From positions 3,963 to 67,962 of the forward strand of contig JBHIAT010000001.1 of assembly GCA_046758705.1 (NCBI GenBank): a stretch of 64,000 bases of DNA. The letters run 5' to 3'. Below are positions 35,787-60,721 of this stretch, piece after piece. A model generated the notes under the pieces. That model made no database searches and was not told the DNA's origin. It saw nothing but the letters and a program-made list of their open reading frames with translations. Made by a program: the position numbers and the translations under genes. This DNA comes from Candidatus Bipolaricaulia bacterium. GTDB taxonomy: Bacteria > Bipolaricaulota > Bipolaricaulia > JBHIAT01. Positions within the stretch are counted from its first letter, which is position 1; each line of letters begins with the position of its first letter.

Positions 35787-35807
35787 TTGTCCCCCTCCAC
35801 CATGCGC

Positions 35808-36314: not shown

Positions 36315-36409
36315 TTCGATCTCCTTCGCATCCCCATCGCGTCTATGCGCTGGGATGCGATACTCGGACTACACTCACCCGATGAAATTACACGGACATA
36401 GATACCTGC

Positions 36410-37393: not shown

Positions 37394-37478
37394 GAGTTAT
37401 CCCTCCCTCCTTTTATGTGAAACACGTAGAAACGTCACTCATCTTTCCTGTCCTCAATCACCCCCTTTCAAAGGGACT

Positions 37479-45730: not shown

Positions 45731-47035
45731 ATGCAAAACCGGGTTTTTGTTCTGGACAAGCATAGCAGGCCCCTGATGCCAACGCATCCAGCCAGGGCAC
45801 GGCAGTTGCTCAAGCAAGGGCGGGCCGTGATTCACCAGCGTGTCCCGTTTACCATCCGGCTCAAGGATCGGGTAGACGGAGAGGGCCAACCGGTACGGCT
45901 CAAGATCGACCCCGGCAGCAAGACCACCGGCATAGCCATCGTGAGAGAGGACGGCGCCAGGGCCGAAGTTCTGCACTTGGCAGAGCTGTACCACAAGCAA
46001 GGTATCCGTAAAGCGATGGAGCAGCGGCGCAACTACCGCCGCCACCGGCGTTCGGCCAACTTGCGCTATCGGGCCCCGCGTTTCAACAACCGCGCCCGAC
46101 CCAAGGGCTGGCTGCCGCCGTCTTTGCAGGCGCGGGTAGATAACGTGTCGTCGTGGGTGAAGCGCTACCGCAGGCTTGTGCCGCTGACCGCCATCTCGGT
46201 CGAGATAGTGCGATTCGATACCCAGAAGCTCCAGAATCCGGAGATTTCCGGCGTCGAGTACCAGCACGGGGAGTTATTGAGTTATGAGGTGCGCGAGTAC
46301 CTTCTGGAGAAGTGGGACCGCAGATGCGCCTACTGCGGTGCAGAAGGCGTCCCGCTCCAGGTCGAGCATATTGTCCCATGCAGCCGGGGAGGCTCCGACC
46401 GGTTGTCTAACCTGACACTCTCCTGTGGCCCGTGCAACCAACGGAAGAACAACCAGACCGCAGTCGAATTCGGCCACCCAGAGGTTCAGGTGCAAGCGAG
46501 GCAGCCACTCAAGGACACCGCAGCCATTAACACGACCCGGTGGGCCGTCTACCGGGCGTTGGTGGCGAGCGACCTGCCGGTGGAGGTGGGAACAGGTGGG
46601 TGGACGAAGTACAACCGCACCCGCCTGGGATTACCCAAGAGCCATGCCCTGGACGCCCTGTGTGTAGGGGCGTCTACACCGGATAGGATTGCCGGGTTGG
46701 AAAAGGCAACAGTGCTGATCATCCAAGCCAGGGGGCGGGGGCAGTACCGGCGTACCAACGTGGACCGCTATGGCTTCCCCAGGGGGTATCTGGCCCGGCG
46801 GAAGGGGGTGGCGGGTTTTCAGACTGGTGACCTGGTGCAAGCCATCGTGCCAGGTGGGAAGTATGCCGGGACGCACGAGGGGACAGTGCAGGTGCGACAG
46901 TCAGGTTATTTTGACATCAGTCGAGACGGGAAGCGGATTGTGCAAGGGATTCATGCTCGCCACTTTCGATTGATACAGAGATTTGACGGTTATTCCTATA
47001 AGAGAGAAGGTCCGGTCCTTCCTCTCCATGCCTGA
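45731..47035 (+). CDS. iscB: IscB, IS200/IS605-family OMEGA RNA-guided nuclease (PLMP-RuvC-BH-HNH-RuvC)
   Basis: PLMP motif (HSRPLMPTHPARARQLLKQGRAV), RuvC-I IDPGSKTTGIAIV, Arg-rich bridge RRNYRRHRRSANLRYRAPRFNNR, HNH CAYCGAEGVPLQVEHIVPCSRGGSDRLSNLTLSCGPCNQRKNN, RuvC-III SHALDALCVGAS. Confidence 0.85.
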   Translation: MQNRVFVLDKHSRPLMPTHPARARQLLKQGRAVIHQRVPFTIRLKDRVDGEGQPVRLKIDPGSKTTGIAIVREDGARAEVLHLAELYHKQGIRKAMEQRRNYRRHRRSANLRYRAPRFNNRARPKGWLPPSLQARVDNVSSWVKRYRRLVPLTAISVEIVRFDTQKLQNPEISGVEYQHGELLSYEVREYLLEKWDRRCAYCGAEGVPLQVEHIVPCSRGGSDRLSNLTLSCGPCNQRKNNQTAVEFGHPEVQVQARQPLKDTAAINTTRWAVYRALVASDLPVEVGTGGWTKYNRTRLGLPKSHALDALCVGASTPDRIAGLEKATVLIIQARGRGQYRRTNVDRYGFPRGYLARRKGVAGFQTGDLVQAIVPGGKYAGTHEGTVQVRQSGYFDISRDGKRIVQGIHARHFRLIQRFDGYSYKREGPVLPLHA

Positions 47036-47519
47036 AGGTGTGAGCTTCCGGGCCGAGAATCTGGTGAGCCTGGGAGAGGTGGAGGCGATGGCCCGAGAGG
47101 CTCAGGATCTGGTCGAAGCGGGGTTCAAAGTCCTGAAGCTTAAGTTGGGCACGGATCCCAGAGTGGACGTCGACCGGGTCCGGGCGGTGCGTCACGCGGT
47201 CGGGGAGCGGATCCGATTGCGGCTCGACGCCAATCAGGGATGGACGCGTCAACAAGCGATTGCGGTTTTGAATCGGGCCGCCGATTATGACGTGGAGCTC
47301 GTTGAACAACCGGTCGCCGCCGTCCAGTTCGCCGCCGCGACCCGCAACGTCCGGTTCCGAGATCTCGATATGGGAACAGAGTTAGAGGAATCGTTGATCA
47401 GACGAGGCGGATCGGAGCTGGCCGACGGTCACCGGATCGTCCCTCAACCCCCCGGCCTGGGGATCGAGGCGGTCAACGAAGCGCTGCTCGGGGAACCGGC
47501 GGTGGTCTACCGAAGTTGA
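47036..47519 (+). pseudogene. C-terminal remnant of the same dipeptide-epimerase-like gene (internally deleted)
   Basis: EGVSFRAENLVSLGEVEAMAREAQDLVEAGFKVLKLKLGTDPRVDVDRVRAVRHAVGERIRLRLDANQGWT...PGLGIEAVNEALL; middle barrel segment missing. Confidence 0.55.
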
Positions 47520-47575: not shown

Positions 47576-49150
47576 ATGAAAAGCCGTTTCTCTAAATTGA
47601 TGTTGATTGGGTTGGGGTTGGTTTTTGCATTCCTGCTAATGCAGGGAACGCTGTTGGAGTCAGCCGCACAGGTTCCTAAGGACATTTTTATATTTGGCAC
47701 AACAAGCGAGACAAGGACGGTAGATCCCCAAGATAGCGTCGACAATATTTCTTGGAGGTCTATCTACTACAATTATGATAGGCTAGTGAGATATAAAGGC
47801 TCCACCACGGAAGTAGAGCCAATGCTAGCGGTGGGTTGGGACATCTCACCTGATGGAAAGACATATACTTTCCATCTGCGGGAGGGCGTAAAGTTTATCG
47901 ATGGGACTCCCTTTAACGCGGAAGCTGTGAAGTTCAGCTTTACTCGCCTTCTTGAGCTTGGCTTGGCGGCATCAGGTCTGCTTAAGGGTATAGTGGATCT
48001 AGAAGGTATCGAGGTTGTTGATGAATACACTTTCCGGTTTCACTTGAACTTTCCGTTCGCGCCCTTCCTCGGCAGCTTGGCGTCAGATCAGGCTAGCATA
48101 GTAAGCCCGGGAATCATGGAACACGAGGTCAATGACGATTACGCCCGGGCTTGGTTGGCTGAACATACAGCCGGTACAGGGCCATTTCATCTGACAGAAT
48201 GGCGCCGAGGGGATGTGATGATCCTGAAACGCAACGATGCTTATTGGGGACCGGCTCCTCATTTTAAAGAAGTGCACATCAAATTTGTTCCAGATCCTGC
48301 CGTTCTCAGGGATACGATTGAAGTAGGCGATATTGACATGGGAGAAACATTGACGGCCGATCAACTTGACGCATTAAGTACCACACCAGGGCTTAGGGTT
48401 ATCGAGGAACCCTCGTTCCTGGCGAGCTACTTATACATGAATAACCAGAGAGAGTTCCTTTCTAACCCTCTAGTTAGGGAGGCCATATCTTTCGCCATTG
48501 ATTATGAGGGGATCATCGAAGGTGTAACACTCGGGCGTGCTATTCAGATGAGAGGCCCTATCCCAAAGGGGATGGACGGGCATGATGAAACGGTGTTTCA
48601 GTATTCTAGGGATCTCGAACGGGCTCGACAACTGCTCGAGCTGGCAGGTCACCCCGATGGGTTCGAGATCGGGCTTTTAATTGATCCGGGCTTCCCTGAT
48701 TGGGTGGCTATCGCAAGCATTGTGAAGGCAAATCTAGCCGAGATCGGCATCAAGGTCAATATAGACGGCTTTGCCCGAGCGACTATGAGAGACATGCTGG
48801 ATAAGGGTGACTTTGATATGGCAACGGGTTTCTGGACCCCTGATTACCCCGATGCCGATATGTTTACATGGTTCTGGTTCCTCTCAGAAAACTGGGGGCT
48901 CGCTGGCAATAGGTCTTTCTACGACAATCGCTGGATGGATGAACTTGTGGTGGCCCAACGGGAAGAGACTGATCCTACAAAACGCCTCGAGATCTTCAAA
49001 AAGATCCAGACCATCGCTGTAGCTGACGCTGCGTACGTTTACCTCTATCAGGCAAATTATCGTTTAGCCATGAGGGATAACGTAAAAGGCTACGTTTACA
49101 ACCCGATGTTACTGAATATGCCGAATTTCGACACTATGCAAAAGGAATAA
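47576..49150 (+). CDS. ABC transporter substrate-binding protein, family 5 (peptide/nickel, DppA/OppA-like)
   Basis: 524 aa with signal peptide; SBP_bac_5 architecture. Confidence 0.8.
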   Translation: MKSRFSKLMLIGLGLVFAFLLMQGTLLESAAQVPKDIFIFGTTSETRTVDPQDSVDNISWRSIYYNYDRLVRYKGSTTEVEPMLAVGWDISPDGKTYTFHLREGVKFIDGTPFNAEAVKFSFTRLLELGLAASGLLKGIVDLEGIEVVDEYTFRFHLNFPFAPFLGSLASDQASIVSPGIMEHEVNDDYARAWLAEHTAGTGPFHLTEWRRGDVMILKRNDAYWGPAPHFKEVHIKFVPDPAVLRDTIEVGDIDMGETLTADQLDALSTTPGLRVIEEPSFLASYLYMNNQREFLSNPLVREAISFAIDYEGIIEGVTLGRAIQMRGPIPKGMDGHDETVFQYSRDLERARQLLELAGHPDGFEIGLLIDPGFPDWVAIASIVKANLAEIGIKVNIDGFARATMRDMLDKGDFDMATGFWTPDYPDADMFTWFWFLSENWGLAGNRSFYDNRWMDELVVAQREETDPTKRLEIFKKIQTIAVADAAYVYLYQANYRLAMRDNVKGYVYNPMLLNMPNFDTMQKE

Positions 49151-49220
49151 AAAGAGGAAACCGGAGAGATCAGTGAGGAGGGAGATCAACGATCAGCTGG
49201 CCTCCCTCCTCGCCATCCAT

Positions 49221-50234
49221 ATGGGTTTTCTAAACTATGTTATCAGACGTTTGGCACTTCAGGTACTGGTCCTGTTTGGTGTATTAGTCATCACATTTCT
49301 CATATCCCATCTTATTCCAGGCGATCCAGCCCAGCTGATTGCCGGCCCTCGGGCTACACAGGAGATAATAGATAAAATCAAGCATGAATCAGGTCTAGAT
49401 AAGCCACTCTATGTTCAATTTTCGGTTTACCTGAAGGGACTGTTTCATGGTAGCTTAGGGACTTCGATCCGCACACGTCGACCCGTTGTACAAGATATAA
49501 AGAGACATTTCCCCGCAACTTTTGAGCTGGTAACGGCGAGTTTCTTTATCATTTTAATTTTGAGTATTCCATTAGGAGTCCTTTCCGCAGTATACAAAGA
49601 TCGATTGTTTGACCATATCAGCAGATTATTTTCCATAGCGGGGATTTCCATGCCAGTTTTCTGGCTGGGTCTACTGCTTCTCCTCCTTTTCTATGTCAAG
49701 TTAGGATGGCTACCAGGAACGGGGCGCATAGACATCGGCATAGCTCCACCTTCCCATATTACTGGTCTACACACCATAGATGCATTGTTGGCTCACAACT
49801 GGGAAGCCCTGAGAAACAGCTTAACACATCTAATACTGCCAGCTCTCACATTGTCTTATGTTTCTTTAGCTAGGGTTGTTCGTATGCTACGTTCAAGCAT
49901 GCTAGAGGCTCTTGGACAGGACTATATCCAGACTGCAAGAGCGAAAGGTCTTGCAGAGAGATTCGTTTTGTACAAGCATGCCTTAAGGAACGCCTTCATC
50001 CCTGCGCTTACAGTTATTGGTCTATCATACGGCGAGCTGCTACAGGGGGCGGTGGTTACGGAAACCATCTTTGGCTGGCCAGGAATGGCATATTATGCAG
50101 TGGGGTCGATGATTTCTCTCGATTTTCCAGCCGTTATGGGTGTAACACTTATTAGTGCCATAATCTATACGACTATCAACCTAATGGTGGATCTATTCTA
50201 TGGCTTTATAGATCCAAGGATCAGATTTGATTAA
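49221..50234 (+). CDS. ABC transporter permease (DppB/OppB-like)
   Basis: MGFLNYVIRRLALQVLVLFGV start typical of DppB; EAA-like loop region; earlier ATG at 49173 possible. Confidence 0.75.
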   Translation: MGFLNYVIRRLALQVLVLFGVLVITFLISHLIPGDPAQLIAGPRATQEIIDKIKHESGLDKPLYVQFSVYLKGLFHGSLGTSIRTRRPVVQDIKRHFPATFELVTASFFIILILSIPLGVLSAVYKDRLFDHISRLFSIAGISMPVFWLGLLLLLLFYVKLGWLPGTGRIDIGIAPPSHITGLHTIDALLAHNWEALRNSLTHLILPALTLSYVSLARVVRMLRSSMLEALGQDYIQTARAKGLAERFVLYKHALRNAFIPALTVIGLSYGELLQGAVVTETIFGWPGMAYYAVGSMISLDFPAVMGVTLISAIIYTTINLMVDLFYGFIDPRIRFD

Positions 50235-51135
50235 AAATTGCAGCCTATCGCTTCGATCTCCGTTCAATATTGCCATAAAGCTTGGTAATCAGCTTCGAAT
50301 TATATTACATTGGCTCACTCAACGCCCCTTAACTCTTGGGGGTGTTGTGATTATATCGGTACTTGTCATTGTGGCTATTGCTGCACCAATCATCGCTCCC
50401 TATGATCCATTAAAAATCAATATTCCGGAAAGGTTGCAGCCAATAAGTCGAGCCCATTTATTTGGGACAGATAACCTTGGAAGAGATATCTTTAGCAGGA
50501 TCATTTACGGCACGCGAATCTCCCTGATGTTGGGAACAATGATTGCAGGAATAGGAGCCTTTACAGGTATCATTCTAGGTTTAATAGCAGGATTTTTCGG
50601 CGGCAAGGTTGATGAGATCACTATGCGAACCTGCGACATGTTTTTGGCTTTCCCAGCGCTTATATTAGCAATGGCTCTTGCCGCCTCACTCGGGCCGAGC
50701 CTTCGAAATGTGTTGCTGGCGTTGGCAGCGATCTGGTGGCCATGGTACGCACGTATTACACGAGGGCAAGTGTTAACCATCCGGGAGTATGAATATGTCA
50801 CGGCTGTGAAATCCCTGGGAGCCAGCAATGTTCGCATCATATTTCTGCATGTTCTTCCAAATGTCATATCTCCCATTATAATCCAGATGACGATGGACAT
50901 AGGAAATACGATTTTGATTGCTTCCTCACTTGGTTTCCTTGGCTTTGGAGCACAACCGCCAACCCCTGAATGGGGATTAATGGCCAGTGAGGGACGATCC
51001 TTTCTTCGAAATTATTGGTGGTATCCTACATTCCCAGGCTTAGCTATATTGATCACGGTTATGGGTTTCAACCTGCTGGGGGATGGGTTGAGGGACTTTC
51101 TGGATCCTCGATTAAGGAGGGCTCAAGTCAAGTAA
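50227..51135 (+). CDS. ABC transporter permease (DppC/OppC-like)
   Basis: six TM segments and conserved permease loop. Confidence 0.75.
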   Translation: MIKNCSLSLRSPFNIAIKLGNQLRIILHWLTQRPLTLGGVVIISVLVIVAIAAPIIAPYDPLKINIPERLQPISRAHLFGTDNLGRDIFSRIIYGTRISLMLGTMIAGIGAFTGIILGLIAGFFGGKVDEITMRTCDMFLAFPALILAMALAASLGPSLRNVLLALAAIWWPWYARITRGQVLTIREYEYVTAVKSLGASNVRIIFLHVLPNVISPIIIQMTMDIGNTILIASSLGFLGFGAQPPTPEWGLMASEGRSFLRNYWWYPTFPGLAILITVMGFNLLGDGLRDFLDPRLRRAQVK

Positions 51136-51192: not shown

Positions 51193-52275
51193 ATGACGCG
51201 ACCCATACTTACTGGAGCTATAGGACCGCATGCTTGGTTCAATGGCAAGGAGATTCTCTACTTCGGAGGAAATAACTACCTTGGGATCGCTGGCCGTCCA
51301 GAGTTGGCGGCCGCGGCTGCCTCCGCGATTCGAAGGTATGGAGCAAGCGTTGGAGCTTCACGCGAAACGAGCGGCACTTCTGATCTTCACCTCCAGTTGG
51401 AGCAGCGCCTTGCAGCCTGGAAGGATACGGAGGACGTGTGCGTGTACGCCTCAGGCTACCTAGGCAACCTCATTCTGCTGAGAGCGCTGCTGAACCCAGA
51501 TGATACGGTTATTTGTGATAGGGGGGTACATCCAAGCGTTCTGGATGGCATTCCCCGATCGATCAAGGCCGTACACTTCTATGAACATCACGATATGGAT
51601 GACTTAAAGAGGGTTATCCAAAAGGTCAAGCAGGGGATTGTCATAGTCAATGGGGTGGAAACGGTCTCTGGGGAGATTGCGCCTTTAGATCGTATCCTGG
51701 AAATTGTCTTTGATCGGAGATTCCGAGTTGTCGTGGATGACGCGCATGCAACGGGCGTATTGGGTGAGAATGGCCGTGGTACACCGGAGCACTTTGGCAT
51801 AAACTCTCCACATGTTTATCAGACAGAGACGATGAGCAAAGCTCTCGGAAGTTTCGGAGGGTTCATTTCCTCGAATCGTCAACTCTGTGACCGCATCCGG
51901 CAGGTTTCAGCTTACATTGGCTCAACCACTTTGCCTCCTTCTGTGGTTGGAGCTTCCATAGCCAGCGTGGAGACCTTGATGAAGGAGCCCCAGTTGCGCG
52001 AGAGGTTAAAGGCAAATGCGCAATACATGGCCTCTCGGTTGAATGACCTTGGACTTACGGTGAGATGGCACGGTACACCTATCGTATCATTCGATGAGGC
52101 GTATGGAGATACGGGAGAGAAGATCCACAAAATATTATTAGAACATTCCATTCTCGTACCCCTCATCCGTTACCCTACGGCTGATAGCCCTGGACGCTTG
52201 CGGTTAACTGTATCGGCTGGACATTCTAAAGAGGATATCGATAGATTTTATGACATTGTAAAGAGATATGGGTGA
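51193..52275 (+). CDS. alpha-oxoamine synthase family PLP enzyme (8-amino-7-oxononanoate synthase/KBL/SPT-like)
   Basis: YFGGNNYLGIAGRPEL, DDAHATGVLGENGRGT, ETMSKALGSFGGFI (PLP lysine). Confidence 0.75.
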   Translation: MTRPILTGAIGPHAWFNGKEILYFGGNNYLGIAGRPELAAAAASAIRRYGASVGASRETSGTSDLHLQLEQRLAAWKDTEDVCVYASGYLGNLILLRALLNPDDTVICDRGVHPSVLDGIPRSIKAVHFYEHHDMDDLKRVIQKVKQGIVIVNGVETVSGEIAPLDRILEIVFDRRFRVVVDDAHATGVLGENGRGTPEHFGINSPHVYQTETMSKALGSFGGFISSNRQLCDRIRQVSAYIGSTTLPPSVVGASIASVETLMKEPQLRERLKANAQYMASRLNDLGLTVRWHGTPIVSFDEAYGDTGEKIHKILLEHSILVPLIRYPTADSPGRLRLTVSAGHSKEDIDRFYDIVKRYG

Positions 52276-52732: not shown

Positions 52733-53476
52733 ATGATCGTCGAGGTCGATGGTCAAAGAGTTCGGTTCGAGGTGAACGGGGTCGGAGAACCGCTGCTCCT
52801 GCTTCACGGCTGGGGCGGCCAGATCGAGAGCTTTTATCCGATCCTGACGCGGCTGTCTGAACACTTCAAGATCTACGTTCTGGACCTGCCGGGGTTTGGC
52901 GACAGCGACCTCCCGCCGGCACCCTGGGGGAGCGAGGACTATGCCCGGTTCGTCACCCGGTTCATGGCCGAACTCGGTGTGGACCGGGCGAACGTGGTCG
53001 GTCATTCGTTCGGTGGCCGGATCGCGATCCGACTGGCGGCCGATTTTCCCAAGTGGGTGGCGCAGCTGGTTCTCGTCGATAGCGCCGGGATCCGGCCGCG
53101 ACGGGGCCCGAACTATTACCTTCGCATCGCTCTCGCCAAGGTGGGACGGCGGCTGCTCGTTGGGAAGCTGAAGCAGGCCCTGTTCAATCGGCTCGGTTCC
53201 ACAGACTACCGGGAGGCCGGAGCGATGCAGGGGACGTTGGTGAAGACGGTCAATGAAGATCTGAGACCCCTGCTTGCCGGAATCGAAGCGCCGACGCTGC
53301 TCATCTGGGGTGAGCGGGACGAGATTCTGTCGATCCGCGACGCAGAGCTCATGGAACGGGAGATTTCTGATGCAACGCTGGTGATCCTTGAGGACGCCGG
53401 CCACTTCTCATACCTCGACCGCCCCCAGGCGTTCTACACCACTGTCTTAGAGTTCCTCGGGAGTGGCTCCCCATGA
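52733..53476 (+). CDS. alpha/beta hydrolase fold protein
   Basis: LLLLHGWGG and GHSFGG nucleophile elbow. Confidence 0.75.
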   Translation: MIVEVDGQRVRFEVNGVGEPLLLLHGWGGQIESFYPILTRLSEHFKIYVLDLPGFGDSDLPPAPWGSEDYARFVTRFMAELGVDRANVVGHSFGGRIAIRLAADFPKWVAQLVLVDSAGIRPRRGPNYYLRIALAKVGRRLLVGKLKQALFNRLGSTDYREAGAMQGTLVKTVNEDLRPLLAGIEAPTLLIWGERDEILSIRDAELMEREISDATLVILEDAGHFSYLDRPQAFYTTVLEFLGSGSP

Positions 53477-55143
53477 GCGCTCTTTGGATCCCAATCATCA
53501 TCATAGGCCTCATCTGGAGGATACGGTTCTTCCGAGAGATTGTCCGGTTCCTCCACATCCTTCAGCTCGAAGGTTACGACCATCACCGGCTGCAGAGTTG
53601 GATTCAAGCCGACCGGGGACGGCTCCCACCACGAGCGGAGCGCTATGCGATCGTTGGCCTTCTGCTCATCGGGGCGGCCCCTTACCTGATCAAAGTGGAG
53701 AACTTCGAGCCATTCTTTCTGACCCTCCCGGCCATAGCGTTGACGATCGAGCTGTACCTGCTCGTCCGCCCCCGACGGCCCAAACCCAAGAAGAGACTTG
53801 TTTACACCGCCCGAGCCATCCGACTGCTCGTTGTGACGTTCATCCTAGCGTTCATCTCTCTGGCAGCCGGGTTGCGAAACCTCCCGCTCAGTTCCGGCTC
53901 GATCGAGATATTCTACCTTCCGACCGCAAGGTTCATCGTACTGACACTCCTGTGGAACCAGCTGGCCCCTTTCGCTCTGGTCACAGCCAACCTCCTGCTT
54001 CGCCCCGTAGAGGAGACGATTCAGCGTGCCTACCTGCGATCGGCGCGTCGCAAGCTCCACAAACTCAGGCCGAAGGTAATCGGGATCACCGGCAGTTATG
54101 GAAAGACGAGCACCAAGTATATCCTGGAGTCGGTCCTCAGCGGGGCGTACCGGGTGCTGAAAACCCCGGAGAGTTACAACACCCCGATGGGGATCTGCAG
54201 AGCCATCCGTGAGTATCTGAGCCCGGAGCATGAGATCTTCATCGTGGAGATGGGAGCCTACGGGCGCGGGGAGGTCGCGGCGCTCTGTGACCTCGTCGGC
54301 CCGGAGATTGGGATCCTGACGGCGATCGGTTCGCAGCATCTGGAACGGTTCAAGGACCTGGAGACCATCACCGAAACGAAGTACGAGTTGATCGCATCCC
54401 TGCCCGAAGGCGGACTCGCCGTCTTCAACGCCGACGACCCCCGATGCGCCAAATCCGCCGATCGAACCGAGATCAAGGGAAGGCTCCGTGTGGTTCGCTA
54501 CGGGATCGAGCCGTCCGATGACCCGAATCATCTGACCCTGAGCGCCCGGGAGATCGAATTCGACGGGACCGGGACAACGTTCACCGTAGAGAGTCGGGAG
54601 ACCGGGGAGACGGCCCGGTTCCACACCCCGCTGCTTGGTCAAGCGAATGTTTCCAATATCCTGGCTGCAACGGCGGTGGCGGTGGCGTACGGAGTGGGGT
54701 TGGCGGAGGTCGGCCGGACGGTCGAAACGCTCCAACCGATCCCCCATCGGCTGCAACCGATCGCCGGAGCCGGCGGAGTCACGGTCATTGACGATGCCTA
54801 CAACGCGAATCCTGTCGGTGCCCGAATAGCGCTGGAGCTGCTTAGCCAATTTCCGGCTGGCCGGAAGGTGCTGGTGACCCCCGGCCTGATCGAACTCGGC
54901 CCGCTCGAAGCGGAGGAGAACCGGAGGCTGGGGGCCGAAGCCGCCCGGGTCTGCGACTATGTGATCCTGGTGGGGCCGGAGCGGACGTTCCCGATCTGGG
55001 AGGGACTTCAGGCCGCCGATTTCCCGACGGAGCGCACCATCGTCGTGCACGATCTGGATGAAGCGACTGAACAACTGAAGGAGATTTTAACGCCGGGCGA
55101 CGTGGTGTTGTTTGAAAACGACCTTCCCGACAACTATTTATAA
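53473..55143 (+). CDS. Mur ligase family protein (MurF-like) with ~190-aa N-terminal transmembrane domain
   Basis: IGITGSYGKTSTKYIL P-loop, Mur ligase middle/C domains; N-terminal hydrophobic helices; ATGA coupling with hydrolase. Confidence 0.65.
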   Translation: MSALWIPIIIIGLIWRIRFFREIVRFLHILQLEGYDHHRLQSWIQADRGRLPPRAERYAIVGLLLIGAAPYLIKVENFEPFFLTLPAIALTIELYLLVRPRRPKPKKRLVYTARAIRLLVVTFILAFISLAAGLRNLPLSSGSIEIFYLPTARFIVLTLLWNQLAPFALVTANLLLRPVEETIQRAYLRSARRKLHKLRPKVIGITGSYGKTSTKYILESVLSGAYRVLKTPESYNTPMGICRAIREYLSPEHEIFIVEMGAYGRGEVAALCDLVGPEIGILTAIGSQHLERFKDLETITETKYELIASLPEGGLAVFNADDPRCAKSADRTEIKGRLRVVRYGIEPSDDPNHLTLSAREIEFDGTGTTFTVESRETGETARFHTPLLGQANVSNILAATAVAVAYGVGLAEVGRTVETLQPIPHRLQPIAGAGGVTVIDDAYNANPVGARIALELLSQFPAGRKVLVTPGLIELGPLEAEENRRLGAEAARVCDYVILVGPERTFPIWEGLQAADFPTERTIVVHDLDEATEQLKEILTPGDVVLFENDLPDNYL

Positions 55144-55147
55144 GTGC

Positions 55148-57262
55148 CTAACCCTGAATGAGGGCACGGTAATCTATTTTCCCCTTGGGGTCTAAGACAG
55201 GCGGCGTGGGGCCTTCCAACAGGTCCAGGTGCTTAAGCATGGTGCCACAATTGAACAGCACCACGCGCTCATAAGGCTGGATCTGATCCGACCGAACCAA
55301 CTGATTCACGGCGGCCACCGTAGCCGCTCCCTCCGGGGAAGCCAACAGCCCTTCGGTTTGGCTGAGCCACGTCATCGCCTCCAAAATCGCCTCATCCGTG
55401 ACCGCCACTACCGTACCGTCACTGTCACGCACCGCCTTGAGAATCAACCGATCTGCCAGCGGATAGGGCACGCGCAGCCCCCCTGCAATGGTGGAAGCAC
55501 CTTCCCAGAACTCGGCTTCGTCGGCACCGGACTCAAACGCCCTGACCACGGGCGCACATCCAGCCGCTTGCACGCTGACCATGCGCGGACGCTTTGCGTC
55601 GATCCAACCCAGCGCCTCCAGCTCAGCGAAAGCCTTCCACATCCCCACCAGTCCCGTACCCCCACCGGTGGGGTAGACGATCACATCGGGCAAGGTCCAA
55701 CCCAGTTGCTCTGCCAGTTCTAAGCCCATCGTCTTCTTGCCCTCAACACGGTAGGGCTCGCGGAAGGTGGATAGATCGAACCAACCGCACGTGTCGCTGC
55801 CCTCGCGCACGATCCTCCCAGCGTCGCTGATGAGGCCGTCCACCAGATACAAGTGCGCTCCCGCGGCCTGACACACGCGCTGGTTAGCCAGCAGTGCGTC
55901 TTTGGGCATGAACACATAGCACTCCAGCCCGGCGCGTGCCGCATAGACGCTTAACGCTTCGGCGGCGTTCCCCGCAGAGGGCATGGCCACGCACGTGACA
56001 CCGAGCTCGACGGCCCTCGACACCCCCATTGCCAACCCTCGTGCCTTGAACGTACCCGTAGGCAGACGCGTTTCATCTTTGCCCCACAGCTGCTCTAAAC
56101 CCAATTGTGCTCCTAACCTGCGGGCGTGGACGAGGGGCGTCATGGTCTCACCCAAGCTCACGATCTTCTGCTCGTCTTGAACCGGGAGCAACTCGCGGTA
56201 GCGCCACATGGTGGGCTCTCGCCCCAAAAGATCCTCATGATGCCACGTTTCCGACAGCGCCTTCAGGTCGTAGCGGGACAAGAGCGGCTTGCCACAGTCA
56301 TCACATACGGTGTTCAATCGGTTGGGATCAAATCTCTTGCCGCACTGACTGCACTCCAGGTGGGTCAAATAGCTGATCATCCGCTTCTGACCCTCATATC
56401 CCTTGTCTTTCAGCATTGCGGCGATAGCAGTGCCCATGATGTCACGCTGAACAATTTCAACCGGCACAACGATTAAGCTCTCAGCCGTTTCGCCATAGGG
56501 ACCCTCTGCAAGAATATCTCCTTCAGGCCCAATAGCCAGAGAGCAACCGATGCACTTGCGCCCTTTCCATACGCCGGCATTGATCCAACCGACGTTGCTG
56601 ACTCCTACCACAGTGATATCGTAGCGTTTCGCAAGGGTTGCATACGATTTTTTCCACATATCACCATAAGGATCCTTGTTATTATCATGATCAGCATCCA
56701 CCGCCCATGCTGAAGGTGAAGGCAAAATTTGCGCACCCATGCGCACTAACGAATGCCCCAAGGACAAAGAATCAGGAAAATTATCAGCACAAATATTGAT
56801 ACCGATCGTCCCAAGAGGGGTTTGGGCAACCGATAAGGAATCTCCGATTGAGTATATATCCTGGGCAATCGTCAGGATGTTGATTTTCCGATGTTTCAAC
56901 AGGATTTCGCCATCTGGAGAGATCAGTACAGCCGCATTATAAATTCGATCTCCAGCTCTCTCCGTAAGTCCTGCAACGACATAGATACGCGCTTCGTGTG
57001 CGGCGTGGCATAATTCATCACTATACTTGCCTGGAATAGGTTGTGCCAATTCGCGTGCTCCTGGATAGGTCCATCCTACATCGAGGCATTCCGGAAGAAC
57101 AACCATGTTACAATCCTGTTCAATCGCGTTCTTGATCATGTTTGTGGCTCGTTTCAGGTTTTGACTGACTGCTCCTCCTTCAACGAGCATTTGTCCCATG
57201 GCCAATTTGAAACCGATCTTTTTCATGCTAAAACTTTTCTCCTCCTTCTGTGCAACGATCAT
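55148..57262 (-). CDS. fusion protein: carbon-nitrogen hydrolase (nitrilase superfamily) + zinc-ribbon + threonine synthase-like PLP domain
   Basis: CN-hydrolase triad context (VVLPECL, LLKHRKINIL, GINICADN) in first ~290 aa; CSQCG...CDDCG ribbon; TGTFKARGLAMGVSRAVELGV PLP-lysine motif of threonine synthase family. Confidence 0.65.
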   Translation of the reverse strand: MIVAQKEEKSFSMKKIGFKLAMGQMLVEGGAVSQNLKRATNMIKNAIEQDCNMVVLPECLDVGWTYPGARELAQPIPGKYSDELCHAAHEARIYVVAGLTERAGDRIYNAAVLISPDGEILLKHRKINILTIAQDIYSIGDSLSVAQTPLGTIGINICADNFPDSLSLGHSLVRMGAQILPSPSAWAVDADHDNNKDPYGDMWKKSYATLAKRYDITVVGVSNVGWINAGVWKGRKCIGCSLAIGPEGDILAEGPYGETAESLIVVPVEIVQRDIMGTAIAAMLKDKGYEGQKRMISYLTHLECSQCGKRFDPNRLNTVCDDCGKPLLSRYDLKALSETWHHEDLLGREPTMWRYRELLPVQDEQKIVSLGETMTPLVHARRLGAQLGLEQLWGKDETRLPTGTFKARGLAMGVSRAVELGVTCVAMPSAGNAAEALSVYAARAGLECYVFMPKDALLANQRVCQAAGAHLYLVDGLISDAGRIVREGSDTCGWFDLSTFREPYRVEGKKTMGLELAEQLGWTLPDVIVYPTGGGTGLVGMWKAFAELEALGWIDAKRPRMVSVQAAGCAPVVRAFESGADEAEFWEGASTIAGGLRVPYPLADRLILKAVRDSDGTVVAVTDEAILEAMTWLSQTEGLLASPEGAATVAAVNQLVRSDQIQPYERVVLFNCGTMLKHLDLLEGPTPPVLDPKGKIDYRALIQG

Positions 57263-58485: not shown

Positions 58486-58514
58486 TTGCCTCATCCCGCA
58501 TCATCTGATACAAT
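58486..58514 (+). promoter_or_regulatory. sigma70-like promoter TTGCCT-N17-TACAAT upstream of ddl pair
   Basis: ttgcct catcccgcatcatctga tacaat; ~75 bp upstream of ddl start. Confidence 0.45.
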
Positions 58515-58589
58515 GGTGCAATTGGACAATGTTTCCTACACTATATCTGTGTCTGTCAGCCGATTGCAATTGATTGGAGACAGGTGGGG

Positions 58590-59669
58590 ATGAGCAAACT
58601 GCGTGTCGGGGTCATCTTCGGTGGGATGTCGGCCGAACGCGAGATCTCCCTAGCGACCGGACGCTACGTCTACTCTTTGCTCGATCCACAGCGGTACGAC
58701 GGGATTGCGCTGTTTATGGCCCCCGACAGCCGGGTCTGGGAGGTTCCAGACAAGCTGGTGATCCAGAACACGACCGCCGACGTCGTCGCCCGCCTTCAGA
58801 CGGATGCGGAGCCCATTCCACTAGAAGAGTTGCCGAAACGAGTCGATCTCGTCTTCAACGCCCTGTTGGGCAAATACGGGGAGGATGGCGCGTTCCAGGG
58901 AGTCTTGGAACTGCTCGACCTGCCATACACCGGATCGGGGGTGCTCGCCTCGACGGTGGGCATGGACAAACGGATCCACAAAGCCCTGCTCCGCAGCGAA
59001 GGCATCCCGGTCGCCGAGGACGTCGTGATCGAGCGTTCGGCCTGGACAACCGACCCGGAACGCTGGCTAACACAGGTGAAAGAGGCACTCAGGTACCCAG
59101 TCGTGGTGAAGCCGACGCGTGAAGGCTCGAGCATCGGGGTTTCCACCGCCGGAGATCGGGAGACGCTGACACGAGCAATCGAGGGTGCGTTCAGCTGGGA
59201 CCGCGAGATCTTGGTCGAGGAATACCTGGAAGGGATCGAGTTCATGTGCGTCGTCCTCGGCAACGACGCACCGGAGGCGATGCTCCCCACCGAGGTCAGC
59301 TTCGCGGGGGAACTCCACACCTACGAAAGCAAATATATGCCGGGGCGGGCCCAGTACCACACCCCGGCCCGCGTCCCAGAACCGGTGCTCCACAAGATCC
59401 AGGAGATGGCCGTTCGGGTTTACCAGCTCATTGGCTGCAAGGGCTATGGGCGAGTCGACGGATTCGTCGTCGGCGAAACGATCTACATCAGCGAGCCGCA
59501 CACCGGTACGATCATGGTTCCCTCCTCTTACGTCTTCCATCAGGCGGCCCGCCATAAGGTCCCGACTAAAGGAGGAGACGGAAGCAAGGGCCTGTCTCCA
59601 CGAGATCTGATCACCCAGATCATCGAGCTGGCGGCCGAAGCTCATCGGGGGAAGAAAGGAGCGCTGTGA
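58590..59669 (+). CDS. ddl: D-alanine--D-alanine ligase
   Basis: RVGVIFGGMSAEREISLATG, ATP-grasp; Lys-Tyr (SKYMPG) at DdlB K215-Y216-equivalent; GGAGA SD before ATG 58590. Confidence 0.8.
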   Translation: MSKLRVGVIFGGMSAEREISLATGRYVYSLLDPQRYDGIALFMAPDSRVWEVPDKLVIQNTTADVVARLQTDAEPIPLEELPKRVDLVFNALLGKYGEDGAFQGVLELLDLPYTGSGVLASTVGMDKRIHKALLRSEGIPVAEDVVIERSAWTTDPERWLTQVKEALRYPVVVKPTREGSSIGVSTAGDRETLTRAIEGAFSWDREILVEEYLEGIEFMCVVLGNDAPEAMLPTEVSFAGELHTYESKYMPGRAQYHTPARVPEPVLHKIQEMAVRVYQLIGCKGYGRVDGFVVGETIYISEPHTGTIMVPSSYVFHQAARHKVPTKGGDGSKGLSPRDLITQIIELAAEAHRGKKGAL

Positions 59670-60721
59670 CCCAGAAGCGGCTTCGCATCGGGATTCTGTT
59701 CGGCGGCCCTTCTTCGGAGTGCGAGATCTCGCTCGAATCCGGACGCCATATCTACAACAACCTGGACGAACGGAGCTGCGAACGGGTTCCAATCTTCGTC
59801 GACTTGGAACGTCGGTTTTGGGAGATCGACGAAGTACTCCTATGGATGAACACCACCGCCGATATCACCGAGGCGCTCGTCGAAAGCGAGGCAGTTCGCA
59901 TCCCGTATGAGGCGCTGCCCGATCGCATCGACTTTGCGTTCTTGGGGCTCCACGGGAAGTATGGGGAGGATGGTTGCTTGCAGGGCCTGCTCGAAATTCT
60001 CAACGTTCCGTACAACGGTTCCGGGATCCTGGGGTCGGCGATCGGTATGGACAAGCACTTCCAACGGAAGTTGCTGGTAGGGGCCGGGCTTCGAGTGCCC
60101 CAGCATCTTGGGATCATGATCGACGCGTGGCAGAAGGACCGCGAGGCGCTCGAACGGCGGATCGCATCAGAGATCGGCTTCCCGTGCATCGTGAAACCGT
60201 CGCGCGAGGGGTGCAGCCTGGCACTCGCCAAGGTGGGGACCCAAGAGACACTGAACCAGGCGATGACGGCAGCGTTCGAGTGGGACAACCTGATCCTGAT
60301 CGAGGAGTTCATCGATGCGATGGAGGTTACCTGCACGGTGCTGGGCAACGACAGACCGGAGGCGTTGATCCCAACTGAGACCCCGAAGCACGGTGACTTT
60401 CTGACGGTCGAGGAAAAATTCCTCCCTGGCAACGCCCCGATGATCACCCCGCCCCGGGCCTCCGCGACGGAGATCGAACGGATGCGAGCGCTGTTCGTCC
60501 GGGCATACCAGGCACTCAACCTGTCGGTTTACGCCCGGATCGATGCGTTCTGGCGTGATGGAGAGTTGATCATCCTGGAACCGAACACCCTCCCCGGAGT
60601 GACTCCGTCGACGATGGTCTTCCATCAGGCTGCTGAGGCCGGGATAACCCCCAGGGAGTTCTTCGACCAGGTGATTGAGCTTTCGCTTGAGGCATACCAC
60701 GACAAGATCGGGCCATTATAG
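59666..60721 (+). CDS. D-alanine--D-alanine ligase paralog (Phe at Tyr216-equivalent; possible depsipeptide ligase)
   Basis: RIGILFGGPSSECEISLESG; EEKFLPG gives Lys-Phe where paralog 1 and DdlB have Lys-Tyr; GTG start overlapping ddl stop. Confidence 0.7.
   Translation: MTQKRLRIGILFGGPSSECEISLESGRHIYNNLDERSCERVPIFVDLERRFWEIDEVLLWMNTTADITEALVESEAVRIPYEALPDRIDFAFLGLHGKYGEDGCLQGLLEILNVPYNGSGILGSAIGMDKHFQRKLLVGAGLRVPQHLGIMIDAWQKDREALERRIASEIGFPCIVKPSREGCSLALAKVGTQETLNQAMTAAFEWDNLILIEEFIDAMEVTCTVLGNDRPEALIPTETPKHGDFLTVEEKFLPGNAPMITPPRASATEIERMRALFVRAYQALNLSVYARIDAFWRDGELIILEPNTLPGVTPSTMVFHQAAEAGITPREFFDQVIELSLEAYHDKIGPL

What the first reader, a model, noticed from the sequence alone, without database searches (positions are those of the whole stretch)
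58590..60721. Tandem Ddl paralogs, the second with Phe at the DdlB Tyr216-equivalent position
Two translationally coupled D-Ala-D-Ala ligase genes sit behind a good sigma70 promoter. Paralog 1 has SKYMPG (Lys-Tyr) while paralog 2 has EEKFLPG (Lys-Phe). In E. coli DdlB the Y216F substitution confers D-Ala-D-lactate (depsipeptide) ligase activity, and natural Phe at this site occurs in intrinsically vancomycin-resistant lactic acid bacteria. The neighbourhood (TM-anchored MurF-like ligase, beta-lactamase-family serine hydrolase, SLT) suggests a cell-wall precursor-modification cluster. No VanH/VanX homologs are seen.
Basis: partly seen in the sequence, partly recalled or inferred. Interest (0 to 1): 0.5.

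Follow-up and report, generated by a model that had tools for sequence, protein, structure and literature searches.

The report
Conserved two-part D-Ala-D-Ala ligase pair
The two adjacent cell-wall ligase genes are real and the second does carry the 'vancomycin-resistance-type' Phe, but the pair belongs to a widespread, largely undescribed two-part form of D-alanine ligase, found as one fused protein in other bacteria and reportedly in plants, and it looks like ordinary cell-wall machinery, not a resistance cluster.

Summary
**Observation: confirmed.**
- Two Ddl-family genes lie at 58590-59669 and 59666-60721. They are 41% identical and overlap by a 4-nt GTGA.
- Aligned to E. coli DdlB, paralog 1 has K215-Y216 and paralog 2 has K215-F216.

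- Paralog 2 also has S150C and S281T. All 120 of its best homologues share C150, F216 and T281.
- Paralog 1 is unusual too: H63L, N272H and G276I.
- The two belong to separate clades, A (upstream, Y-type) and B (downstream, F-type).
- These clades occur as ordered A-then-B pairs in Patescibacteria, Chloroflexota, Syntrophales, NC10 and this Bipolaricaulia MAG.
- They occur as single A-B fusion proteins in Dependentiae, Bacteroidota and a Rickettsiales-labelled MAG.
- The literature describes plant DDL as a fusion of two DDLs. I could not check its residues.

**Context**
- The pair sits in the dcw cluster in Dojkabacteria and next to MurF-alanine racemase fusions elsewhere.
- Both modules keep every ATP-grasp catalytic residue.
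- The window's A subtype always co-occurs with an α/β-hydrolase coupled to a membrane-anchored MurF-like ligase. Both are present at 52733-55143.
- I found no VanH or VanX.

**Verdict:** most likely a housekeeping two-subunit ligase feeding MurF. D-Ala-D-Lac synthesis is possible but unsupported. New variant of a known kind; interest about 0.55.

The parts
58486..58514 (+). sigma70-like promoter candidate upstream of paralog 1 (TTGCCT-17-TACAAT, TG before the -10)
   Evidence: 9 of 12 matches, and 2 sites found in 2.6 kb against 0.7 expected from shuffles. Weak evidence only.
58590..59669 (+). Paralog 1, the 'A' subunit (subtype A1a). A Ddl-family ATP-grasp protein that keeps E15, S150, K215, Y216, R255, D257, E270 and S281. 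It has L63, H272, T275, I276 and Y282, plus an 11-residue insertion relative to paralog 2 after 'HQAA'. An alternative GTG start lies at 58584.
   Evidence: About 100 of its 120 best homologues share L63/H272/I276. Subtype A1a nests inside the A clade on the NJ tree.
59656..59669 (+). Coupling junction: AAGGAG Shine-Dalgarno-like motif, a 4-nt spacer, then GTGA (par2 start overlapping the par1 stop)
   Evidence: Gaps between A and B in other loci range from -56 to +953 nt, and A1a loci range from -26 to +26 nt.
59666..60721 (+). Paralog 2, the 'B' subunit. A Ddl-family ATP-grasp protein with all ATP, Mg and transition-state residues canonical (K97, K144, E180, E187, K215, R255, D257, E270, N272, G276). 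It has C150, F216, T281 and M282.
   Evidence: C150/F216/T281 occur in all 120 best homologues and in all 120 fusion C-halves. The B clade is monophyletic.
52733..53476 (+). Alpha/beta-hydrolase with an intact GHSxGG / D / GHF triad and no signal peptide or TM segment. Its stop overlaps the start of the MurF-like gene by 4 nt. It is a lineage-specific companion of the A1a-type pair.
   Evidence: It is present with the TM-MurF-like gene in all 7 A1a loci and in none of about 35 A1b loci. It reaches no NCBIfam equivalog cutoff.
53473..55143 (+). MurF-like Mur ligase (M and C domains). It lacks the canonical N-terminal domain. In its place are a conserved [LF]Q[LS]E[GE]Y motif and about 4 TM helices before the P-loop.
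   Evidence: (TIGR01143 murF 244.6 bits against a cutoff of 288.6, model positions 54-403 only). In Dojkabacteria it occupies the murF position directly before mraY.

Best explanation
**What it is**
- The two genes encode the A and B subunits of a conserved two-module D-alanine ligase.
- This is an old duplication of Ddl in which the two copies stayed together. They appear as an ordered, often translationally coupled A-then-B gene pair, or as a single A-B fusion protein.

**The two modules**
- Both remain catalytically equipped ATP-grasp enzymes, but they diverged asymmetrically.
- A keeps the E15-S150-Y216 triad and remodels the metal/oxyanion/D-Ala2 loop. Most lineages have D270, S275 and F282. 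This window's subtype has L63, H272, T275, I276 and Y282.
- B keeps that loop and replaces the triad with E15-C150-F216, plus T281.

**How it most likely works (inferred)**
- Canonical Ddl works as a homodimer (established knowledge of the family). A and B therefore most likely assemble as a pseudo-symmetric heterodimer.
- The complex supplies the terminal D-alanyl dipeptide to MurF for peptidoglycan synthesis. D-Ala-D-Ala is the most likely product.
- The Phe is a hallmark of the whole B clade, not an acquired resistance trait.
- In this lineage the pair works alongside a membrane-anchored MurF-like ligase and a coupled alpha/beta-hydrolase of unknown role.

**Shown versus inferred**
- Shown: the two clades, their signatures, the fixed gene order, the fusions and the genomic contexts.
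- Inferred: physical association, the product, and the housekeeping role.
For: **Clades and signatures**
- All 120 best par2 homologues have C150, F216 and T281. About 100 of the 120 best par1 homologues have L63, H272 and I276.
- In every fetched locus that holds both genes, the Y-type is upstream and the F-type downstream.
- The NJ tree gives clean B, A and canonical clades.
- Clade-discriminating positions are almost all active-site positions, and P284F is shared by A and B.

**Fusions**
- Twelve fusion ORFs were found in species-representative genomes.
- The 120 best database hits to a fusion query are all fusions of 714-809 aa. Each has an N-half of A type and a C-half of B type, and both halves keep all catalytic residues.
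- About 100 of the 148 best 50%-identity cluster representatives are A-B double modules.
- Named fusion hosts include Cytophagales, Bacteroidetes MED-G17 and a Rickettsiales-labelled MAG.

**Predicted packing**
- AlphaFold2 on a natural fusion gave pLDDT 91.1 and pTM 0.88.
- The window pair joined end to end gave pLDDT 90.6 and pTM 0.88. This implies confident relative placement of the halves.
- Each half superposes on solved Ddl chains with TM 0.8-0.92.

**Context**
- Dojkabacteria: mraZ-rsmH-ftsI...A-B-hydrolase-MurF*-mraY. A related arrangement is in L010.
- MurF-alanine racemase fusions lie next to A/B in L012 and L095.
- A PASTA-domain protein lies directly downstream of the fusion in two Bacteroidota loci.

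**Literature**
- Plant DDL is a fusion of two DDL enzymes, and the moss ddl knockout cannot dimerise D-Ala (PMC9954125).
Against: - There is no biochemistry for any A/B protein from bacteria.
- I could not obtain a plant DDL sequence. That the plant halves carry the A/B signatures is unverified, so the D-Ala-D-Ala product inference from moss is indirect.
- I could not scan whole genomes, so a third, canonical ddl in the same organisms is not excluded.
- Each Ddl active site lies within one subunit, so catalysis does not require a heterodimer.
- Gene fusion also occurs between consecutive pathway enzymes that are not a complex, such as MurF-Alr.
- The pTM values come from alignments of natural fusions, so the window-pair model is not an independent test. 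The tool also returns no inter-domain error map or coordinates.
- In some Syntrophales, A and B are 0.4-0.95 kb apart or on different contigs.
- The Phe/Cys triad is exactly the kind of change that gives depsipeptide activity in DdlB and LmDdl2 (PMC7691350).
Confidence: 0.6

Rival explanations
1. First reader's reading. Paralog 1 is the normal D-Ala-D-Ala ligase. Paralog 2 is a D-Ala-D-lactate (or other D-2-hydroxyacid) depsipeptide ligase. Precursors therefore end partly or wholly in an ester, giving intrinsic insensitivity to glycopeptides.
For: - F sits at the Tyr216 position and C at the Ser150 position.
- Ser150 and Tyr216 are conserved in Ddls that make only D-Ala-D-Ala. LmDdl2 has Ala/Phe there, and DdlB gains weak D-Ala-D-Lac activity with those changes (PMC7691350).
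- F versus Y decides depsipeptide versus dipeptide in lactic acid bacteria (PMC5996685).
- The coupled alpha/beta-hydrolase could in principle act on an ester.
Against: - No VanH-type dehydrogenase or VanX/Aad-type dipeptidase was found in the ORFs scanned.
- Par2 scores far below the D-Ala-D-Lac models: NF000206 at 159.7 bits against a cutoff of 550, and the Van-type models at 117-134 bits against cutoffs of 700-775.
- The F/C/T signature is invariant across phyla and fused 1:1 to a Y-type module. That fits core machinery better than an adaptive trait.
- Moss, whose DDL is described as a two-DDL fusion, makes an Ala-Ala terminus and shows macrochloroplasts on vancomycin (PMC9434261, PMC9954125). 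Signature identity with plant DDL is unverified.
- As I recall from Park & Walsh 1997 (not re-read here), LmDdl2 also makes D-Ala-D-Ala. Phe alone therefore does not fix the product.
Confidence: 0.2
2. One module is a non-catalytic or regulatory partner (a pseudoenzyme). In this window that would be paralog 1, whose Mg ligand Asn272 is His and whose oxyanion-loop Gly276 is Ile. It would only stabilise or regulate the catalytic B module.
For: - N272H, G276I, P275T and H63L are conserved in the A1a subtype.
- E270D and P275S occur throughout the rest of clade A.
- The changes concentrate in the metal and transition-state loop.
Against: - K97, K144, E180, E187, K215, R255, D257, the E15-S150-Y216 triad and S281 are retained in essentially all A sequences. 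That is unusual for a dead enzyme.
- D-x-N can still bind Mg, and His can bind a metal.
- G276 acts through its backbone NH (established DdlB structural knowledge), so a side chain there is not necessarily disabling.
Confidence: 0.15
3. The two are independent enzymes with different amino-acid specificities. Examples would be D-Ala-D-Ala plus D-Ala-D-Ser, D-Ala-Gly, or a non-peptidoglycan dipeptide. They would be co-transcribed only because both act in envelope synthesis, with no complex.
For: - Both modules look catalytically competent, and their differences lie at substrate-contacting positions.
- The pair is sometimes unlinked in Syntrophales.
- Fusions of consecutive but non-complexed enzymes exist, such as MurF-Alr.
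Against: - The A-then-B order is strict, overlaps are frequent, and fusion is seen in at least three named bacterial groups.
- pTM is 0.88 for the two-module chain.
- Small Patescibacteria and Dependentiae genomes retain both modules.
Confidence: 0.15

Closest known systems
[quoted passage not shown]
   Same: - It has two complete Ddl modules in one functional unit.
- Genetics place it in peptidoglycan D-Ala-D-Ala supply (PMC9954125, PMC7432710).
- Moss Ddl is reported closest to FCB-group bacteria (PMC9434261). That is where I find A-B fusions of about 860-950 aa.
   Different: - Here the modules are two separate, translationally coupled genes.
- The A module is the divergent A1a subtype (L63, H272, I276).
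- I could not obtain a plant sequence, so whether plant halves carry S150/Y216 and C150/F216 is untested.
Bacterial A-B fused Ddl proteins of Dependentiae/TM6/Babeliales (about 705-810 aa), of Bacteroidota (about 860-950 aa, some up to about 1285 aa), and a class of about 780-844 aa that includes a Rickettsiales-labelled MAG. All are annotated only as 'D-alanine--D-alanine ligase' or 'ATP-grasp domain-containing protein'.
   Same: - They show the same two clades in the same order.
- The C-half has C150, F216 and T281, like par2.
- All are predicted to have the Ddl fold.
   Different: - They are a single polypeptide.
- Their A half is subtype A1b (H63, D270, N272, S275, G276, F282), not A1a.
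- They have no associated alpha/beta-hydrolase or TM-MurF.
LmDdl2 and other F-type Ddls of intrinsically vancomycin-resistant lactic acid bacteria (PDB 1EHI)
   Same: - Phe is at the DdlB Tyr216 position, and the Ser150 position is also replaced: Ala in LmDdl2 (PMC7691350), Cys here.
- The fold is the same, with TM 0.84 to 1ehi_A.
   Different: - In these bacteria the F-type enzyme is described as the ligase that sets the precursor terminus (PMC5996685), with no Y-type partner mentioned.
- Here the F-type always comes with a Y-type partner.
- Sequence similarity to 1EHI (E = 3e-34) is lower than to many ordinary Ddls.
- There is no evidence here for a D-lactate source or a D-Ala-D-Ala dipeptidase.
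VanA/VanB/VanD-type D-Ala-D-Lac ligases and VanC/VanG-type D-Ala-D-Ser ligases
   Same: They belong to the same ATP-grasp Ddl superfamily, and their second-substrate specificity is set by omega-loop and active-site residues.
   Different: - All NCBIfam Van models score 114-197 bits against cutoffs of 495-775.
- There are no vanH, vanX, vanR or vanS neighbours.
- The VanA omega loop aligns without K215/Y216 equivalents (using a VanA sequence recalled from memory and not verified).
Canonical homodimeric DdlB/DdlA (E. coli, S. aureus, T. thermophilus and others)
   Same: - The domain architecture is the same, as are the ATP-binding and catalytic residues.
- Best PDB sequence matches are at E = 1e-52 to 1e-53.
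   Different: - Canonical enzymes carry E15/H63/S150/Y216/E270/N272/P275/G276/S281/L282 in one protein and are encoded by a single gene in their locus (30 of 30 sampled).
- Neither window paralog has the full set.

Membership tests
Ddl family (ATP-grasp D-alanine-D-alanine ligase, EC 6.3.2.4) | Pfam Dala_Dala_lig_N plus Dala_Dala_lig_C architecture | tested here: met
   Par1 scores 80.8 and 163.2 bits. Par2 scores 87.8 and 152 bits. All are above the cutoffs.
Ddl family (ATP-grasp D-alanine-D-alanine ligase, EC 6.3.2.4) | Curated NCBIfam Ddl model cutoffs | tested here: inconclusive
   TIGR01205 is just met (249.8 and 246.6 bits against 245.65). NF002528 is just missed (260 and 255.3 against 262). 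NF002378 is met by par1 only. All equivalog models fall far below cutoff.
Ddl family (ATP-grasp D-alanine-D-alanine ligase, EC 6.3.2.4) | ATP-binding and phosphoryl-transfer residues K97, K144, E180, E187, K215, R255, D257 | tested here: met
   All are present in both paralogs.
Ddl family (ATP-grasp D-alanine-D-alanine ligase, EC 6.3.2.4) | Metal/oxyanion loop E270-x-N272-T-x-P275-G276 | tested here: not met
   Par2 has EPNTLPG, which meets the feature. Par1 has EPHTGTI (N272H, P275T, G276I), which does not.
Ddl family (ATP-grasp D-alanine-D-alanine ligase, EC 6.3.2.4) | E15-S150-Y216 hydrogen-bond triad, conserved in enzymes that make only D-Ala-D-Ala (PMC7691350) | tested here: not met
   Par1 has E/S/Y, which meets the feature. 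Par2 has E/C/F, which does not.
Two-module A/B Ddl (this report's grouping: unfused pairs plus Dependentiae and Bacteroidota fusions) | Downstream or C-terminal module with C150, F216 and T281 and a canonical E-x-N-T-L-P-G loop | tested here: met
   Par2 reads EHCKFRDENPGTM at the 13 key positions.
Two-module A/B Ddl (this report's grouping: unfused pairs plus Dependentiae and Bacteroidota fusions) | Upstream or N-terminal module with S150/Y216 retained and an altered 270-282 loop, falling in clade A | tested here: met
   Par1 is subtype A1a (E270/H272/T275/I276/Y282), nested within clade A on the NJ tree.
Two-module A/B Ddl (this report's grouping: unfused pairs plus Dependentiae and Bacteroidota fusions) | A-then-B order on the same strand, adjacent or fused | tested here: met
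   The window pair has a 4-nt overlap.
Two-module A/B Ddl (this report's grouping: unfused pairs plus Dependentiae and Bacteroidota fusions) | Physical A:B association | not testable with these tools
   Evidence is indirect only: the fusions, and pTM 0.88 for fused chains. No multimer prediction, error map or coordinates were available.
Plant-type DDL (two fused DDL enzymes) | The same A and B active-site signatures in the two plant halves | not tested
   No plant DDL sequence could be obtained. The supplement figure is an image, AFDB libraries were unavailable, and no plant entry was identified among the representatives.
VanA/B/D-type D-Ala-D-Lac ligase | Score above the NCBIfam D_ala_D_lac or Van model cutoffs | tested here: not met
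   Par2 scores 159.7 bits against 550 for NF000206. It scores 117-134 bits against 700-775 for the Van-type D-Ala-D-Lac models listed (VanA, B, D, F, I, M, O).
VanA/B/D-type D-Ala-D-Lac ligase | Operon partners VanH (D-lactate dehydrogenase) and VanX (D,D-dipeptidase) | tested here: not met
   Neither was found in the 40 of about 50 window ORF calls scanned.
LmDdl2-type intrinsic D-Ala-D-Lac ligase of lactic acid bacteria | Phe at the Tyr216 position and loss of Ser at the Ser150 position | tested here: met
   Par2 has F216 and C150. LmDdl2 has Phe/Ala according to PMC7691350.
LmDdl2-type intrinsic D-Ala-D-Lac ligase of lactic acid bacteria | Stands alone, with no Y-type partner, as the ligase that sets the precursor terminus | tested here: not met
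   The B type has a Y-type partner adjacent or fused in most loci. One Syntrophaceae assembly has the two on different contigs. The remaining B-only loci lack an A within the DNA held or are cut by contig ends.
LmDdl2-type intrinsic D-Ala-D-Lac ligase of lactic acid bacteria | D-Ala-D-Lac synthesis in vitro, or a depsipeptide-terminated precursor in vivo | not testable with these tools
   This needs enzymology or precursor mass spectrometry.

The most novel reading that the evidence does not exclude
Many bacterial lineages (Patescibacteria, Bipolaricaulota, Chloroflexota, Syntrophales, Dependentiae, part of Bacteroidota) and, by descent, plant plastids may make the peptidoglycan terminal dipeptide with an obligate asymmetric A:B hetero-ligase. 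Its two active sites would have divided the work, for example with one site specialised and the other regulatory or proofreading, or with each making a different terminus. In the A1a lineages, including this window, the whole last cytoplasmic step would be rewired. It would use a His/Ile-type A subunit, a MurF that has swapped its UDP-binding N-domain for a membrane anchor, and a dedicated serine hydrolase. This could act on a membrane-associated substrate or build a non-canonical terminus.
Probability: 0.2. Interest if true: 0.8.

Novelty: new variant of a known kind. Interest (0 to 1): 0.55.

Why it matters
- Ddl is a textbook homodimeric enzyme and an antibiotic target: D-cycloserine inhibits it directly, and vancomycin binds its product.
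- A large part of uncultured bacterial diversity, and apparently plants, may instead use a fixed pair or fusion of two differently wired modules. That would change how Tyr/Phe-based predictions of vancomycin susceptibility can be applied outside lactic acid bacteria.
- It would explain why plant DDL is a double enzyme.
- It would also offer a natural system for asking what the E15-S150-Y216 triad and the E-x-N loop each contribute.
- The lineage-specific link to a membrane-anchored MurF-like ligase and an alpha/beta-hydrolase is a testable lead into cell-wall synthesis in Patescibacteria and Bipolaricaulota. Little is known there experimentally.
- For annotation, a Phe at this position in this clade should not be read as a resistance determinant.

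Tried and rejected
**Rejected**
- Van-type ligase membership. The NCBIfam scores are far too low.
- A resistance cluster with VanH and VanX. Neither was found.

**Considered and set aside**
- The alpha/beta-hydrolase as BioH, because a BioF/Kbl-like gene lies upstream. BioH models score far below cutoff, and the hydrolase is conserved next to the MurF-like gene in Patescibacteria loci that have no bioF neighbour.
- The ~900-aa representatives as plant proteins. Two that I looked up are continuous bacterial genes with Bacteroidota-type neighbours. Named members are Bacteroidetes or Cytophagales.

**Attempts that failed**
- Getting a plant DDL sequence. The supplement figure is an image, Hirano 2016 is not held, and AFDB fold libraries were unavailable.
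- A residue-level alignment to LmDdl2 (1EHI). I relied on PMC7691350 for its Ala/Phe residues.

**Uninformative results**
- Literature searches for the pair, the fusion in Dependentiae, a heterodimeric Ddl, or a TM-anchored MurF in the Candidate Phyla Radiation found nothing relevant.
- PDB sequence matches for the hydrolase are generic esterases and hydrolases.
- The Foldseek PDB search only confirmed the Ddl fold for each half, and no solved chain spans both modules.


Full report
**1. Observation**

The window holds two adjacent same-strand ORFs at 58584/58590..59669 and 59666..60721. Both have the Pfam Dala_Dala_lig_N and Dala_Dala_lig_C architecture. They are 41% identical to each other, E = 4e-102.

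The par1 stop TGA overlaps the par2 GTG start, and an AAGGAG motif lies 4 nt upstream of that start. Homologues of 359 aa favour the ATG at 58590 as the par1 start.

The promoter candidate at 58486-58514 is TTGCCT-17-TACAAT. It matches 9 of 12 positions, and 2 such sites were found against 0.7 expected. That is modest evidence.

The exact proteins occur only in metagenome assemblies. One source names the host 'Candidatus Bipolaricaulia bacterium'.

**2. Position of the Phe**

I took E. coli K-12 DdlB from the annotated genome to get verified numbering. BLASTP aligns par2 'VEEKFLPG' and par1 'YESKYMPG' with DdlB 'YEAKYLSD'. It also aligns par2 'SREGCSL' with DdlB 'SREGSSV'. MAFFT and HMM alignments agree.

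**3.

- Par2 also has S150C and S281T. Its ATP, Mg and transition-state residues are otherwise fully canonical.
- Par1 keeps E15/S150/Y216 but has H63L, N272H, P275T, G276I and L282Y. Its motif reads 'EPHTGTIM' where DdlB has 'EANTSPGM'.
- These are family traits, not one-off changes. All 120 best par2 homologues have C150, F216 and T281. About 100 of the 120 best par1 homologues have L63, H272 and I276.

**4. A conserved pair**

The two hit lists share contigs. Look-ups showed a Y-type gene immediately upstream of an F-type gene in Dojkabacteria, NC10 and several unnamed metagenome contigs.

Classifying every Ddl-family ORF in the fetched loci gave the following.

| Class | Count | Key positions | Where found |
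|---|---|---|---|
| B modules | 47 | C150, F216, T281 | Downstream gene or C-terminal half |
| A modules | 50-51 | S150, Y216, altered 270-282 loop | Upstream gene or N-terminal half |
| Canonical Ddl | 30 | E H S K Y R D E N P G S L/M | Single gene in the locus; mostly Firmicutes, plus a few other MAGs |

On an NJ tree, B, A and canonical each form a clean clade.

Clade A has two subtypes.

- **A1b** has H63, D270, N272, S275, G276 and F282. It occurs in Syntrophales, Chloroflexota/Anaerolineae, NC10 and in the fusions.
- **A1a** has L63, E270, H272, T275, I276 and Y282. It occurs in this window, in Patescibacteria loci, and in one Melainabacteria-labelled MAG.

The positions that discriminate the clades are almost all active-site positions, and P284F is shared by A and B.

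**5. Fusions**

- Twelve loci carry one ORF of 735-819 aa made of an A1b module followed by a B module.
- A search with one such protein returned 120 full-length fusions of 714-809 aa as its best hits, mostly from Dependentiae, TM6 and Babeliales.
- In all 120, the N-half has S150 and Y216, with D270 in 118. The C-half has C150, F216 and T281. Both halves keep K97, K144, E187, K215, R255 and D257 without exception. Only E180 varies, with one Gln in each half.
- An exhaustive search of 50%-identity representatives with par2 gave 1993 hits at E <= 1e-30. About 100 of the best 148 clusters are A-B double modules, in three length classes.
- Named or context-identified members are Cytophagales, Bacteroidetes MED-G17, other Bacteroidota-like contigs with Por-secretion neighbours, and a Rickettsiales-labelled MAG.

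**6. Predicted structure**

- A natural fusion, modelled with 120 aligned fusions, gave pLDDT 91.1 and pTM 0.88 over 738 residues. Low confidence was confined to the two omega loops and the linker.
- The window's par1 and par2, joined end to end and aligned to natural fusions, gave pLDDT 90.6 and pTM 0.88.
- A pTM this high for a two-module chain implies a confidently placed A:B interface. The second model is not independent of the fusion alignment, and no error map or coordinates were available.
- Each half matches solved Ddl chains with target-normalised TM 0.8-0.92, and no PDB chain spans both halves.

**7. Genomic context**

- In two Dojkabacteria-type loci the order is mraZ-rsmH-(ftsL)-ftsI-...-A-B-alpha/beta-hydrolase-Mur ligase-mraY. 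The pair therefore sits in the division/cell-wall cluster just before the murF position.
- L010 has a related arrangement.
- L012 and L095 have a MurF-alanine racemase fusion adjacent to A/B. This links racemase, ligase and adding enzyme.
- Two Bacteroidota loci have a PASTA-domain protein directly downstream of the fusion.
- In the window, the beta-lactamase-family and SLT neighbours are not conserved with the pair elsewhere.
- No VanH- or VanX-like gene was found among the ORFs scanned.

**8. The A1a-specific companions**

- All seven A1a loci, including the window, have an alpha/beta-hydrolase and a MurF-like ligase within 6 kb. None of about 35 A1b loci does.
- The hydrolase has a GHSxGG/D/GHF triad. 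Its gene overlaps the MurF-like start in the window and in four other A1a loci (L004, L009, L010, L011).
- The ligase has only the M and C Mur domains. It matches the murF model from position 54 onward, at 244.6 bits against a cutoff of 288.6.
- It replaces the N-domain with a conserved [LF]Q[LS]E[GE]Y motif and TM helices.
- The window copies are at 52733-53476 and 53473-55143.
- The hydrolase matches no defined family, and its role is unknown.

**9. Literature**

- F versus Y at this site decides depsipeptide versus dipeptide synthesis in lactic acid bacteria (PMC5996685).
- Ser150 and Tyr216 are conserved in D-Ala-D-Ala-only Ddls. LmDdl2 has Ala/Phe there, and DdlB gains weak D-Ala-D-Lac activity with those substitutions (PMC7691350).
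[quoted passage not shown] The moss ddl knockout cannot dimerise D-Ala (PMC9954125, PMC7432710).
- I found no paper describing the A/B asymmetry, the unfused pairs, the bacterial fusions or the TM-MurF/hydrolase module.
- I could not obtain a plant sequence to test whether it has the A/B signatures.

**10. Interpretation**

- **Shown:** two clades, fixed order, coupling or fusion, retention of catalytic residues in both, and a cell-wall context.
- **Inferred:** A and B form a pseudo-symmetric heterodimer, by analogy with homodimeric Ddl. Together they provide the D-alanyl dipeptide for MurF. D-Ala-D-Ala is the most likely product, given the racemase and MurF context and the moss data.
- The Phe is a clade hallmark.
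- The D-Ala-D-Lac reading remains chemically plausible for the B site but lacks any supporting context. I rate it about 0.2.
- A pseudoenzyme role for the His/Ile-type A subunit, and fully independent enzymes with different specificities, are further rivals at about 0.15 each.

**11. Novelty and score**

- The gene family is known, and the double plant DDL is known.
- The systematic A/B asymmetry, its breadth in bacteria, the A1a subtype and its companion genes appear undescribed in the literature I could search.
- I classify it as a new variant of a known kind, with interest 0.55.
It is a more general and testable peculiarity of cell-wall precursor synthesis.

Noticed in passing
window 6173-32916 (- strand): A large extracellular contractile injection system (eCIS) or phage-tail-like island. 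It includes an eCIS_core protein, DUF6519, an AAA ATPase, Pvc16_N, a T4 gp19-type tube and a sheath. Its GC is about 0.50 against about 0.59 in the rest of the window, which suggests horizontal acquisition.
   Followed up: partly
window 45731-47519: An RRXRR plus HNH endonuclease gene (45731-47035) directly abuts a short ORF holding only part of an MR_MLE_C enolase-superfamily domain (46983-47519). This looks like a gene disrupted by a mobile endonuclease.
   Followed up: no
window 55148-57262 (- strand): A single 704-aa ORF fuses a carbon-nitrogen hydrolase (nitrilase-like) domain to a full threonine synthase, which scores 596 bits on NF006050. This is an unusual domain combination.
   Followed up: no
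window 53473-55143; L004 11825-13309; L009 13565-15058; L010 11091-12515; L011 11870-13297: The MurF-like ligases that accompany A1a-type pairs lack the canonical N-domain. These five share an N-terminal [LF]Q[LS]E[GE]Y motif followed by 1-4 TM helices. In L013 and L036 the motif was not detected. In Dojkabacteria this gene holds the murF position before mraY.
   Followed up: partly
window 34278-40923 (- strand): A cluster of the TctABC tricarboxylate transporter, an M24 peptidase (prolidase/creatinase-like), an opine dehydrogenase and an MR/MLE enolase-superfamily enzyme. Further downstream on the + strand (47576-51135) is a Dpp/Opp-type peptide ABC transporter. The combination may point to peptide or opine catabolism, or to dipeptide epimerisation.
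   Followed up: no
L093 10737-11897; L094 10756-11607: In two Bacteroidota-type contigs a PASTA-domain protein is encoded immediately downstream of the A-B fused Ddl.
   Followed up: no
L095 5478-10535; L012 5481-11065: A MurF-alanine racemase fusion gene lies directly next to the A-B Ddl, which is fused in L095 and unfused in L012. The racemase, ligase and adding-enzyme steps are therefore packed into two or three genes.
   Followed up: partly
L036 5998-7137; L006 1140-2210: Two intermediate signatures turned up. A Patescibacteria B module keeps S150 but has F216 and A276. An NC10 A module combines D270 with H272, C275 and A281. These may be useful for reconstructing the order of the substitutions.
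   Followed up: no
L011 4986-6167 and 13450-14397: Two DAO-family (FAD-dependent, D-amino-acid-oxidase-like) genes flank the A-B-hydrolase-MurF-like module in one metagenome contig.
   Followed up: no
L016, L023, L024, L026, L028-L030 (Syntrophales loci): In many Syntrophales the A and B genes are separated by a conserved gap of about 830-950 bp, not coupled. L012 has a 187-aa ORF with no Pfam hit between them. I did not examine what fills the Syntrophales gap.
   Followed up: no
window 51193-52275: A BioF/Kbl-family PLP-dependent acyltransferase scores well below every equivalog cutoff (bioF 279 bits against 426). It lies just upstream of an acylphosphatase and the hydrolase/MurF-like pair.
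   Followed up: no
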